From contig JAUWZX010000002.1 in the NCBI GenBank assembly GCA_030615175.1, positions 62,001 to 126,000 of the forward strand: 64,000 nt of DNA. The letters run 5' to 3'. This document shows, one piece after another, positions 15,001-18,000 of this stretch; positions within the stretch are counted from its first letter, which is position 1, and each line of letters starts with the position of its first letter. A program made the position numbers. Source of the stretch: Candidatus Parvarchaeota archaeon. Lineage in GTDB: Archaea > Nanobdellota > Nanobdellia > WJKC01.

Positions 15001-18000
15001 AATTCATCAAACCCTAAGCCTTTCTTCGCTGACACTCCAACAACCCTGTACTGAGGGAATGCTGACTCAACCCTCTTAATCCTGCTCCTCTTAAGGTCAG
15101 TCTTGTTAGCGACTATAATCGTTGGTATATTCCTCACTTCAAGATTCCCCAGTATAGTAATATTAACTTGAGTGTAAGGATCCTTAGTTGAATCCATTAC
15201 TGTTAGAACAATGTCCATCTCATCAAGCCATTTAATAGCGTCAATAACCCCTCTAGTCGCCTCCATCGCTCTCTTCTTAGCTTCCTTAGGCTTAATCTTA
15301 TATTTTAGGAATTCCTCGAAATCAACTTTAGTGCTAATGCCTGGAGTATCAATTAAGTTAATCTCTAATTTCTTGCCATTTCTTTCCATGATAACGCGTT
15401 CCTTAATCTGTATCTCCCGCGTTTCATGAGGAATATTACTTACAACACCAACTTCCTCACCAATCCAAGCCATACTTATATTATTCGCAATCGAGGTCTT
15501 TCCTGCGTTAGGAGGACCGTAAATTCCAAGCTTGAATAATTTCTTGCGCCTGAAAATCCTATTAAAAAATAATTTAATGAATGAAAACTTAATCCCCCTT
15601 TTCTTAACCATCATTATTACTTAATAAACACTTAACTAAAATATTTTGCTATTTCCAACAGAGAAAACTTTATTACTAATTAATTTATAATTAAGAAAAT
15701 AATGAGGAGATACATAATTTTTATCACATCACTACTAGTAATTTCACAGGCATTAGGATTAACGTATAACTTAAAAGGGGTTACAACAAGGGTTTACCCT
15801 GGAGAAACCCTGCATTATGAAATAAACTTCACTAATGATGATACTAGCAAAGTTCATGTTTACTTGAACGCATTCATGTTAGAAACTTTTGGCATTGCAA
15901 TCATTAAGCCTTCAATAAACTTGCACATAGAACCTAATGAAACCCATGCAATTAATTTAACAATAAATATTAATCCTAGCACTCCTGCAAGCGAGTACTT
16001 AACACCATTATACATTTCTTATAATAATATTACTGAAAAAATATGGATTTCATCAACAGTCCTCAAGGAAACTGTTGAATTAATTGAACTGCAGAACTTA
16101 ACTCTTGTGGGAATTTACTCCACTGACCCTAGAGAACCCATCAATATTTCAGGGACAGTGATATGCAATGTTGATAACATTTATCCTCGTTTTAATGTAA
16201 TAATTTCAGATGAAACAAGCATTGTTTATAATTCATCAAGCATTATTGGATTCTTTTCAGGTGCTAACATCTTTGAAAGAGAATTAAGACTTAATCCAAA
16301 AATTCCTCCTAGAGATTACACCATGCTTGTTGAAATATTAATTTCAGGAAAAGTCATAACGCAGGCTGCTAAAACATTAACAGTGACTAGTTATAAGAAT
16401 ACTACAAGAACTTCAAGCATTGTTGAAGACATTTTCGGCAAGAACGTTCAGAAAACAGTGACTAATTCCGGTAATGAGGAGATAATTGTTAACCTCAATT
16501 ACTCAACTAATATTCTTGAAGTATTATTAATAACAGATATTAATTACGCTGTTTACGAGGACGGCAATCTCCTGTTTTTAAAGAAGGCCAGCAGTTCTGA
16601 CTTCACTAATTATTTATTCTCAAGGAATGTCCCACTCGCTCCTGACCAGAGCATTACACTAACAGTTAATACATCCTACTTTACATTAATCTTAATGCCA
16701 TTCTTCGCGATTCTAGGAGTCATAGCATGGATACTGCTTAACAAGAAAATCAGGGTTGAAAAAGAGATTATACTATCGCGCAAGGAAGGTAAGGAATTAA
16801 TAGTTAAGATAGCCATAAGAGTTAAGAACATTGGCTTCAGGGCAGTTAATGAGGCATTAATCATTGAAAGCATTCCATTATACGTTAAGAAGTTAGGAGG
16901 CTTTGGAAGCATTAAGGGAGAGATTGATAAGGTTAGGAGATGGCTTAAGTTTGACTGTGGGACGCTCAGGCCTAAGGAAGAAGTACTGGTTTCTTACAAG
17001 TTTAAGACTGATGTTGAATTAGTTGGCAGGGTTTCACTGCCACCGGCAACTGTTAAATTCAAGTTTAAGCGTAAAATACATGAAGTTAAGAGTAATACTC
17101 CAATAATTGAGTTAATTAAGGGTGGCGAGCCGTAAGAAAAGTTTTAAAAGCGTTTAAAGTTACTTCTTATAATAATCCCGTCGTAGCTCAACCTGGCAGA
17201 GAATAAACTTTTCGAAGTTTGTCTGCAACGCACGGCTGTAGTTTAATACAATATAGTATTGAATCAACAGCAGTTGAGCAGTCACCGTGAGGTTCCCGGT
17301 TCAAGACCCATAGAGGGGGAAGGTTTCCCCTTGGGATGAGAATCCGGGCGACGGGACCATTACCCATGCCCGGGTAGTCTAGTCTGGCCTAGGATCCTTG
17401 CCTGTCGAGCGGGGGACTCGGGTTCAAATCCCGGCCCGGGCGTCTTATTAATTCACCACACACCAGTTATAGGACGAATTCATGACTTTTTCTTGTCTTG
17501 TAATAAATTTAAGAATTGTTAATATTTGATTATTTTTTTTATCTTTATTAACTACTTGAAAGAACGAATCAAAGAGTTAGGTTAATTAATTTTTATTCCT
17601 TGTTTATCTAATGCGTCATTACATAATTTATCACATATTTGAATAAATTCATTTTCTCTAGGAACATGGATAAACTCTACCGACTCAAAGAAATTAATTA
17701 ATTGGCGTATTTTCTCAACTTTTTCTTTAAGATGTTCTGCTTTAACTCTATAAACACCATTTAAATGATTTACTACCAATTCACTATCACAATAAATTTT
17801 TACTTTCCATCTTGTTTGTTTAATCGCATTATTTAAAGCCCTAATAATAGCTTCATATTCAGCAATATTGTTAGTTGCTACACCTAAATACTCAGAAAAA
17901 GTTAAGAACGGAGATTCATCACTATTTCTAATATAAATAAAAGAACATGAAGCACGACCAGGATTCCCTCTACATGCACCATCAGTGAAAATTTTTAATT

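What a model noticed while it worked through the whole genome (the two positions that open the first line are those of the whole stretch)
17177..17356. Twelve tRNA genes hidden by non-canonical introns, ten with an intron in the T-loop, one (tRNA-Tyr) with three introns
Standard scans give 30-33 tRNAs and lack Ile, Trp, Phe, a true Tyr and most Ser/Leu. Twelve genes are found or corrected once introns outside 37/38 are allowed: Tyr-GTA C1:79177-79356 (+; introns 24/25, 37/38, 59/60; C1-G72 pair as expected for archaeal Tyr), Pro-CGG C1:36276-36388 (+), Trp-CCA C5:241516-241677 (+), Leu-TAG C5:532017-532153 (+; ARAGORN's call ends wrongly at 532103), Ser-TGA C5:698982-699215 (-; 96-nt + 53-nt introns), Ser-CGA C5:641163-641299 (-), Ile-TAT C5:290419-290560 (-), Leu-AAG C5:281030-281165 (-), Ser-GCT C5:73788-73922 (-), Leu-CAA C5:69541-69691 (-; called as protein g00433), Ile-GAT C5:101151-101298 (+; D-loop + 37/38 introns), Arg-GCG C5:390444-390559 (-; intro [...]
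Evidence so far: T-arm/acceptor scans, sequences; removal of the stated introns gives 71-86-nt sequences that ARAGORN calls as intron-less tRNAs with the stated anticodons, 12 of 12. ARAGORN with introns and the Rfam tRNA model miss or mis-call these loci. Pro-CGG and Trp share a second T-loop intron family (82.6% over 69 nt, call 25).
(Added by a program. Inside this text positions count along the whole contig: contig position 62,001 is position 1 of the stretch shown here. "Call 12" and the like, gene names such as g00115 and contig names such as C1 are that model's own, and its searches are not shown. The text may have been shortened before it was handed on; [...] marks where a part breaks off. 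The agent that wrote the report below was given it as the finding of a first reader that could run no searches.)

Follow-up and report, generated by a model that had tools for sequence, protein, structure and literature searches.

The report
tRNA introns built from dispersed repeats
A tiny archaeon hides a dozen tRNA genes behind unusually placed introns, and many of those introns are copies of a short hairpin repeat that also sits elsewhere in the genome between duplicated target sequences, which offers a testable lead on where archaeal tRNA introns come from.

Summary
Confirmed. In-silico splicing gives an intron-less ARAGORN call for 12 of 12 genes; an independent T-loop scan finds 8 of the 10 T-loop genes and 0 in two controls. 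Window tRNA-Tyr has introns at 24/25, 37/38 and 59/60, also in the sister genome. A thirteenth hidden gene, Thr-GGT, lies at window 3341-3446. These positions and triple introns are known from Thermoproteales and ARMAN-2. The new part: six T-loop introns and two Pro-TGG introns are copies of a 27-45-nt hairpin plus mirror-tract (triplex-type) repeat. It has six more copies outside introns here, four between 12-39-nt direct repeats of gene ends. Its arms covary across 287 archaeal copies. The sister genome fills T-loops with other triplex-type families; two other genera lack these introns. The only EndA found is a lone alpha unit without known specificity loops, yet five T-loop junctions are relaxed. 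No mobilising enzyme was found, no RNA data exist, and how the splice junction closes is unexplained. This scan has noted the repeat family and such duplications before, on other DNA; my eight literature searches found no report.

The parts
17177..17356 (+). tRNA-Tyr(GTA) gene with three introns; mature length 74 nt, C1-G72 first pair
   Evidence: same three positions in sister genome G001
17202..17228 (+). Intron 1, position 24/25 (27 nt); relaxed motif: 4-bp central helix, 9-bp intron helix, no exon helix (HBh')
   Evidence: absent in G002, G003, G012, G028
17242..17283 (+). Intron 2, canonical 37/38 (42 nt); strict hBHBh'
17306..17342 (+). Intron 3, T-loop 59/60 (37 nt); shortened member of a G/C-rich purine-hairpin-mirror (triplex-type) family that fills four T-loop introns in G001
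   Evidence: 22/25 identical to the G001 Tyr T-loop intron; 0 of 300 shuffles reach the score
17137..17161 (+). A/T-rich BRE/TATA-like promoter region (inferred from position and from similar tracts before other tRNAs)
   Evidence: by reading, not tested
17368..17442 (+). tRNA-Asp(GTC), intron-less, 11 nt behind Tyr; probably co-transcribed (inferred)
3341..3446 (+). tRNA-Thr(GGT) with two introns, 3372-3390 (31/32) and 3398-3410 (37/38); ARAGORN mis-calls it Met-CAT
   Evidence: G003 has an intron-less Thr-GGT at the matching locus, G001 and G002 have GGT genes with introns
48726..48762 (-). Non-intron triplex-type repeat (8-nt-linker subfamily, as in the Ser-TGA T-loop intron), antisense to the end of the rpsJ (S10) gene
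48691..48714 (+). Last 24 nt of rpsJ: first copy of the direct repeat around the element
48763..48786 (+). Second copy of the rpsJ end (21 of 24 nt identical, counted by hand), directly abutting the element's 5' end
33321..33421 (+). tRNA-Lys(TTT) with an ordinary 27-nt 37/38 intron (context)

Best explanation
The twelve loci (plus Thr-GGT) are working tRNA genes whose introns are cut at bulge-helix-bulge junctions by the single alpha-type EndA and joined by RtcB (enzymes and junctions shown; splicing inferred, about 0.93 on its own). Most T-loop introns come from small dispersed insertion elements with an intrastrand-triplex layout (NN-ACCC, pyrimidine tract, loop, complementary purine tract, GCGT-NN-ACGG, mirror purine tract). 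Proposed route: (1) the element is joined by its fixed 5' end to a break in a gene, mostly on the sense strand of stable-RNA genes, and 12-39 nt of target are re-copied behind it (footprints shown; enzyme unknown; copying of a structured single-stranded template primed at the break is my guess). (2) Near a gene end the duplication restores the gene and the copy stays outside it. (3) Deeper in a tRNA a copy survives only if its 3' side pairs with its own first bases and with T54-A57, so that EndA removes it (inferred; how this closing arm arises is not shown). (4) A finished T-loop intron then spreads between tRNAs sharing the GTTCRA..TC flanks, and families replace one another within a genus.
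For: 14 copies in G000 at E <= 1.4e-7, next hit 0.093: 6 in T-loop introns, 2 in Pro-TGG 37/38 introns, 6 outside introns. Four of those six lie between direct repeats of a gene end: 5S rRNA 3' end 39 nt, L44e-like start about 30-36 nt, ABC-permease end 19 nt, tRNA-Val 5' end 12 nt; a subfamily copy duplicates the rpsJ end in the window. Across 287 distinct copies 13 have a direct repeat of 17-39 nt, 11 ending exactly at the element's first base and 2 one base off; 0 in five flank-swapped controls. In G000 the element starts 0-2 nt from the 5' splice site in 8 of 8 introns. Stem pairs are Watson-Crick in 275 and 281 of 287; the first G of the purine tract is mirrored in 52 of 59 against a shuffled mean of 13, maximum 22. 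Inner GC-TNC-GC or GC-TNNC-GC loops occur 36 times, the reverse complement 0 times, as expected for d(GNA) mini-hairpins on the opposite DNA strand (recalled). Pattern present in 22 of 301 class genomes, up to 29 copies, reversed pattern 0; inside 16S and 23S rRNA genes and in frame in proteins. Ile-TAT and Leu-AAG introns are 50/50 identical; the G000 Ser-TGA 37/38 intron is homologous to the G001 Leu-AAG T-loop intron. G002 and G003 lack T-loop introns in the Tyr, Leu and Ser genes examined. RtcB present.
Against: No mobilising enzyme: Y1 transposase in 3 of 22 element-positive and 5 of 22 pattern-negative genomes, reverse transcriptase in 2 of 22 and 1 of 22, neither in G000; no shared neighbour protein other than broken IS200-type tnpA genes. 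Only 13 of 287 copies keep a duplication, two of them tandem arrays. A closing arm complementary to the element start was not significantly enriched in tRNA-internal copies (10 of 35 against 42 of 252, p = 0.10, crude classes), and a plain direct duplication of the T-loop does not give a BHB in register (reasoned). Tyr, Leu-TAG, Leu-AAG and Ser-CGA have a 59/60 intron in both G000 and G001, three of them with different contents, which also fits elements landing in older introns. The Trp/Pro-CGG T-loop pair and most D-loop and 37/38 introns show no link to the element. Copies are not independent (related genomes, pattern-selected). No RNA evidence.
Confidence: 0.5

Rival explanations
1. The introns are real, but the repeat does not create them: it lands in, or overwrites, introns that already exist because they are neutral space.
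For: 59/60 introns are shared by G000 and G001 at Tyr, Leu-TAG, Leu-AAG and Ser-CGA while the contents differ at three; the element also sits in canonical 37/38 introns; the closing-arm test was not significant.
Against: The element begins 0-2 nt from the 5' splice site in 8 of 8 G000 introns and supplies the intron-side helix itself; Ser-GCT and Leu-CAA lack a T-loop intron in G001 but have an element intron in G000; relatives carry it at D-arm, anticodon, variable and T-arm sites.
Confidence: 0.25
2. The direction is reversed: introns spread by reverse splicing or gene conversion as proposed for Thermoproteales, and the non-intron copies are escaped intron cDNAs.
For: Identical introns in Ile-TAT and Leu-AAG, one family at two positions; strong sense bias in tRNA genes, 56 against 3.
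Against: Non-intron copies lack the 3' splice arm, several are antisense to their gene (5S rRNA, rpsJ, tRNA-Val in G001), G127 has 23 copies, and those I read were intergenic, and no reverse transcriptase was found.
Confidence: 0.12
3. The triplex repeat is a selected functional signal (RNA processing, pausing or stability) placed at tRNA exon edges, not a selfish element.
For: Three-way covariation shows the fold is maintained; copies cluster at tRNA and gene boundaries.
Against: Patchy distribution (22 of 301 genomes), turnover between sister genomes, in-frame insertions in unrelated proteins and rRNA, precise target duplications. The E. coli analogue had no promoter or terminator activity (PMC4666352, passages).
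Confidence: 0.1
4. The loci are disrupted pseudogenes or assembly artefacts.
For: No RNA data; five T-loop junctions have only 3 of 4 central pairs; the two identical Pro-TGG copies may be a mis-assembly or a conversion.
Against: They are the only Tyr, Trp and Ile genes found and most Ser/Leu genes; exons are conserved in G001 while introns drift with pairing kept; a contig of another run spans Leu-CAA and the tRNA-Val duplication without gaps.
Confidence: 0.03

Closest known systems
Multi-intron and non-canonical BHB tRNA genes of Thermoproteales and ARMAN-2 (PMC4090602, PMC3239211; passages read)
   Same: Introns at 59/60, in the D-arm and anticodon stem; up to three per gene; about 55% of genes interrupted (24 of 44 here; 56% in ARMAN-2); strict and relaxed BHB junctions.
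   Different: Here the genome has one alpha-type EndA with no CSL/ASL insertion and no second paralogue found, not an (alpha-beta)2 or epsilon2 enzyme; the introns have homologues outside tRNA genes.
Intron transposition in Thermoproteales (Fujishima et al. 2010, seen only as described in PMC4090602 and the Asgard preprint)
   Same: Near-identical introns in different tRNAs and at different positions.
   Different: There the mechanism and donor are stated to be unknown; here the shared sequence is a genome-wide repeat with target duplications.
BoxC / PIT / TMECO class II intrastrand-triplex repeats of bacteria (PMC4666352; passages read)
   Same: Pyrimidine tract, complementary purine tract, mirror purine tract in one strand; about 30-45 nt; many copies; no associated mobile element; unstable loci.
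   Different: TMECO is G/C-rich, always intergenic, without strand bias, with a 3-nt second loop; this family is A/T-rich with a conserved 10-nt linker, lies within tRNA, rRNA and protein genes and acts as intron. The word tRNA does not occur in that paper.
REP elements (GTAG- and CGTC-tagged) and IS200/IS605 ends (PMC3733652, PMC6006769; passages read)
   Same: On the opposite strand, a short fixed tag (CCGT) at the foot of an imperfect hairpin; occasional in-frame insertions.
   Different: No tracking HUH transposase, long variable target duplications, a third mirror tract, targeting of tRNA genes.
Alpha4 DPANN EndAs with raised tRNA disruption (PMC5829648; sections 16 and 17 read)
   Same: Single-subunit DPANN EndA with many disrupted tRNAs; that paper expects hidden tRNA genes in DPANN.
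   Different: It credits an L3 loop; the G000 enzyme aligns to M. jannaschii EndA with no insertion and lacks the N. equitans insertion. I could not see the figure that delimits L3.

Membership tests
Archaeal BHB tRNA introns | Removal restores a cloverleaf with a valid anticodon | tested here: met
   12 of 12, plus Thr-GGT, Phe, Gln-TTG, Met
Archaeal BHB tRNA introns | Strict or relaxed BHB at each junction | tested here: met
   T-loop central helix 4 of 4 pairs in Tyr, Pro-CGG, Trp, Leu-TAG, Ser-TGA; 3 of 4 (mismatch at 57) in Ser-CGA, Ile-TAT, Leu-AAG, Ser-GCT, Leu-CAA. The 37/38 junctions of Ser-TGA and Ile-GAT are poor (2 of 4)
Archaeal BHB tRNA introns | EndA and RtcB encoded | tested here: met
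Archaeal BHB tRNA introns | Splicing seen in RNA or in vitro | not testable with these tools
   no RNA holder listed
(alpha-beta)2 / epsilon2 broad-specificity EndA | Second subunit or fused units, and CSL/ASL loop | tested here: not met
   One 190-aa unit; profile search of all six-frame ORFs gives one hit, next E = 0.24; no insertion at the CSL site. Genome 87% complete; G001-G003 also show one match each. A very divergent beta subunit is not excluded
Class II intrastrand-triplex repeats (layout) | Y tract, complementary R tract, mirror R tract in one strand, covarying | tested here: met
Class II intrastrand-triplex repeats (layout) | Triplex formed physically | not testable with these tools
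   needs CD, NMR or footprinting
TMECO / BoxC family proper | G/C-rich consensus, 3-nt second loop, always intergenic | tested here: not met
   compared with the consensus in PMC4666352
REP / REPtron or IS200/IS605 derivative | Cognate Y1 HUH transposase in the genome or beside copies; no long target duplication | tested here: not met
   broken tnpA genes do carry the element in 4 + 8 loci
Target-primed retro-insertion | One fixed end, variable-length target duplication | tested here: met
   13 of 287 copies, 17-39 nt
Target-primed retro-insertion | Reverse transcriptase that tracks the element | tested here: not met
   PF00078 only:
tRNA-Trp intron box C/D guide | D/D' and C/C' boxes with a guide whose fifth base upstream of the box pairs with C34 | tested here: met
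   One guide, a CTGA box and a TGATGA-like box in the 50-nt intron, kept in G002; only half of the two-guide form in PMC4090602

The most novel reading that the evidence does not exclude
A previously undescribed class of triplex-coded mini insertion elements, moved by an enzyme that is neither a Y1 transposase nor a standard reverse transcriptase, is a general source of new archaeal tRNA (and rRNA) introns; a minimal alpha4 EndA without specificity loops removes them, including from relaxed T-loop junctions.
Probability: 0.35. Interest if true: 0.9.

Novelty: new variant of a known kind. Interest (0 to 1): 0.68.

Why it matters
How intron DNA enters archaeal tRNA genes is stated as the central open problem in a 2026 preprint that found no route in Asgard archaea (10.64898/2026.10.13.758758), and the mechanism of Thermoproteales intron transposition is given as unknown (PMC4090602). 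This genome holds one short sequence family both as spliceable intron and as duplication-flanked insertion, with empty sites and replacements in close relatives, so the steps can be tested with short synthetic RNAs and one 190-aa enzyme. It also tests the rule that relaxed non-canonical introns need an EndA with a specificity loop. Practically, standard tools miss or mis- of 44 tRNA genes here, so 'missing tRNA' claims for DPANN genomes are unsafe.

Tried and rejected
RNA runs: no RNA holder listed. Viral collection: 16 pattern matches; no shared replication or transposition protein beside them, several look like chance matches in coding DNA. Neighbour clustering of ORFs around element copies found no donor enzyme. 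Y1 transposase and RVT_1 do not track the element; Cas1, integrases and primase-polymerases were not profiled. A generic triplex scan of G000 was not specific (36 rows with duplicates against 27 in the reversed control) and served only to find two subfamily copies. The closing-arm enrichment test failed. Integron attC, casposon and DGR readings were considered and dropped by inspection (too short, no terminal inverted repeats, no fixed duplication length, no adenine-specific change); not tested further. Searches for Leu-TAA, Arg-CCG and Pro-GGG/AGG by pattern and half-tRNA profiles found nothing. My RNase P reading of L045 did not reach the Rfam gathering score. In one search the G001 Tyr 'T-loop intron' was cut too long (it includes the 37/38 intron); the alignment quoted lies in the T-loop part. 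Leu-AAG (A34) looked surprising but A34 Leu/Pro and Ile-UAU are reported for ARMAN-4/5 (PMC3239211). Two sequence look-ups in the scan's notes returned nothing. Supplements of the bioRxiv preprint were not available and figures (including the one defining the L3 loop) could not be seen.

Full report
Setting. The window is G000:C1:62001-126000 of a 1.02-Mb, 87%-complete genome in five contigs. I infer a Nanoarchaeia-type DPANN archaeon: class relatives are mostly 0.5-1.3 Mb and the best solved match of its splicing endonuclease is the N. equitans enzyme.

Observation. All twelve loci are present. ARAGORN finds 24 genes without and 33 with introns, Rfam 30; in the window only Asp and Gly are called. 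Cutting the introns in a script gave intron-less ARAGORN calls with the stated anticodons in 12 of 12; registers were chosen by cloverleaf and BHB score, and for Ile-GAT the D-loop boundary remains uncertain. A model-free scan for a split T-arm found 8 loci, all among the ten claimed, and 0 in reversed and complemented genomes. tRNA-Tyr (17177-17356) has introns at 17202-17228 (24/25, HBh'), 17242-17283 (37/38, strict) and 17306-17342 (59/60). The sister genome G001 has the same three positions with conserved exons; G002 and G003 have only 37/38. One 'missing' gene is in the window: the Met-CAT call at 3341-3446 is Thr-GGT with two introns; the matching locus in G003 is an intron-less Thr-GGT. 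TiaS was not found in 5 of 5 genomes searched, so a third CAT gene is not needed. With Phe-GAA, Gln-TTG and Met-CAT corrected, the set is 44 genes, 24 with introns.

Splicing machinery. One EndA (190 aa; catalytic Tyr, His and Lys aligned) and one RtcB are present. A profile from class relatives finds no second unit among 4,473 six-frame ORFs (next E = 0.24), and there is no insertion at the CSL site or relative to M. jannaschii EndA. Five T-loop junctions have a full 4-bp central helix and five have a mismatch at position 57. PMC5829648 (passages, sections 16 and 17) says efficient cleavage of relaxed motifs needs a specificity loop and notes alpha4 DPANN enzymes with an L3 loop and more disrupted tRNAs; I could not see how L3 is delimited.

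What the introns are made of. Six T-loop introns (Leu-TAG, Ser-CGA, Ile-TAT, Leu-AAG, Ser-GCT, Leu-CAA) share a core that also fills both Pro-TGG 37/38 introns and occurs six times outside introns: 14 copies at E <= 1.4e-7, next 0.093, from a profile seeded with 12 of them. Layout: NN-ACCC, pyrimidine tract, loop, complementary purine tract, GCGT-NN-ACGG, then the purine tract in mirror order. I noted this triplex-type layout, before seeing the scan's earlier notes. Among 287 distinct copies with enough flank, from the loci and later fetches, the two NN pairs are Watson-Crick in 275 and 281 (all four pair types at the outer position in the 175-copy set), and the first G of the purine tract is mirrored in 52 of 59 against 13 on average and 22 at most in 1,000 shuffles. 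Copies are pattern-selected and partly related, so these are not independent events. Inner loops read GC-TNC-GC or GC-TNNC-GC 36 times and the reverse complement never; on the opposite strand these are d(GNA)/d(GNNA) mini-hairpins (recalled), which hints at single-stranded DNA. The Ser-TGA T-loop intron belongs to an 8-nt-linker subfamily with two non-intron copies, one in the window. The Tyr T-loop intron is a shortened member of a G/C-rich family that fills four T-loops in G001, and the 96-nt Ser-TGA 37/38 intron is homologous to the Leu-AAG T-loop intron of G001. The Trp/Pro-CGG pair (34/39) matches none of these.

Insertion footprints. Four of the six non-intron copies in G000 lie between direct repeats of a gene end: 5S rRNA 3' end (39 nt, antisense), an L44e-like start, an ABC-permease end (19 nt) and tRNA-Val 5' end (12 nt); the window copy duplicates the last 24 nt of rpsJ (21/24). 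Over 287 copies, 13 have repeats of 17-39 nt, 11 ending exactly at the element's first base, against 0 in five flank-swapped controls; two of the 13 are tandem arrays. In G000 introns the same end lies 0-2 nt from the 5' splice site in 8 of 8.

Distribution and turnover. The pattern occurs in 22 of 301 class genomes, up to 29 copies, the reversed pattern in none. Of 175 copies, 59 had a tRNA profile hit nearby, 56 sense and 3 antisense (control 11 of 162 loci); a cruder rule gave 50 sense and 9 antisense of 287. Copies lie within 16S and 23S rRNA matches and in frame in proteins. G001 has T-loop introns in Tyr, Leu-TAG, Leu-AAG, Ser-CGA and Ser-GGA, but of other families, and none in Ser-GCT or Leu-CAA; the G002 and G003 genes fetched have none (not all their tRNAs were fetched). 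In DNA contigs of public runs, X2 spans Leu-CAA and the tRNA-Val duplication without gaps, and X3 and X4 differ by 25 letters across Ser-GCT, the length by which the G000 intron falls short of the full Leu-CAA form (inferred; one run may be the genome's source).

Mechanism, shown and inferred. Shown: genes, junction motifs, enzymes, element homology, covariation, duplications, empty sites. Inferred: splicing itself; insertion at a strand break with re-copying of target; survival by duplication near gene ends or by splicing inside genes; spread of finished introns between T-loops. Not explained: the enzyme (Y1 transposase 3 of 22 against 5 of 22, RVT_1 2 of 22 against 1 of 22) and the origin of the 3' closing arm (10 of 35 against 42 of 252, p = 0.10). 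The main rival is that elements colonise existing introns.

Known and new. Positions 59/60 and triple introns are known (PMC4090602 and PMC3239211, passages), as are A34 Leu/Pro and Ile-UAU in ARMAN-4/5. Shared introns recall Thermoproteales, where the mechanism is given as unknown. The element resembles BoxC/PIT/TMECO in layout but not in sequence or location (PMC4666352, passages; the lead came from the scan's notes). REP papers (PMC3733652, PMC6006769, PMC12306157; passages) describe nothing like it in tRNA genes. The Asgard preprint (first of seven parts and passages) found no route of intron arrival and does not mention DPANN. Eight searches of an open-access library found no report of triplex-type repeats as archaeal tRNA introns; subscription papers, including Fujishima 2010 and Sugahara 2007 and 2008, were not read. 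The scan itself has noted the repeat family and tRNA-end duplications several times on other DNA; those notes are unchecked and are not counted as support.

Verdict. As an annotation it is a new member of a known kind. The link between introns and a dispersed, duplication-flanked triplex-type repeat in one genome, with turnover in its sister, and a lone loop-less EndA, make it a new variant that bears directly on an open question. Interest 0.68.

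Noticed in passing
window 3341-3446 (+): tRNA-Thr(GGT) with introns at 31/32 and 37/38, mis-called Met-CAT; intron-less at the matching locus in G003.
   Followed up: yes
window 48691-48786: Triplex-type repeat antisense to rpsJ with a 24-nt duplication of the gene's end.
   Followed up: partly
G000:C5:583367-583506 and 588952-589091: Two identical Pro-TGG genes 5.6 kb apart; the second has the same neighbours as Pro-AGG in G001 (L036), so a Pro-AGG gene may have been overwritten by conversion or mis-assembled.
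   Followed up: partly
G000:C5:281030-281165 (-): Leu-AAG (A34) with no Leu-GAG; G001 also has Leu-AAG and Pro-AGG. Reported for ARMAN-4/5; no adenosine deaminase was sought.
   Followed up: partly
G000:C5:241554-241603; 406276-406422 (-): The Trp 37/38 intron holds a single-guide C/D module aimed at C34, kept in G002; the 72-nt Arg-CCT intron has a C box and two CTGA boxes, target not identified.
   Followed up: partly
L074, L080, L109, L135, L240, L245, L273, L281, L285, L296, L351: The element sits in IS200-type tnpA genes of ANME-1-like archaea at about four different points (by reading), in frame in some; cis action of TnpA or neutral multi-copy targets.
   Followed up: partly
L057:518-523 and 6676-6682 (C5:66517, 72675): Other strains carry 49- and 72-letter inserts here; letters not shown.
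   Followed up: no
L357, L361, L365, L039 (G012): tRNA genes with up to three introns, nearly all triplex-type elements of several linker subfamilies, some nested.
   Followed up: no
L045 (G028); L101, L102, L194, L299: Element inside 16S and 23S rRNA matches and inside an RNase-P-like RNA (by reading only); possible BHB introns.
   Followed up: partly
L059, L060, L062, L064, L065, L068: Single copies in viral contigs, several shortly before terminase-like genes and one just after a virophage-like capsid gene (labels by reading).
   Followed up: no
G000:C1:36238-36275: A subfamily copy abuts the 5' end of Pro-CGG in antisense orientation, where the promoter would be.
   Followed up: no
L367, L368, L375 (G002, G003): tRNA 3' ends are duplicated behind short hairpin-rich inserts without the triplex core.
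   Followed up: no
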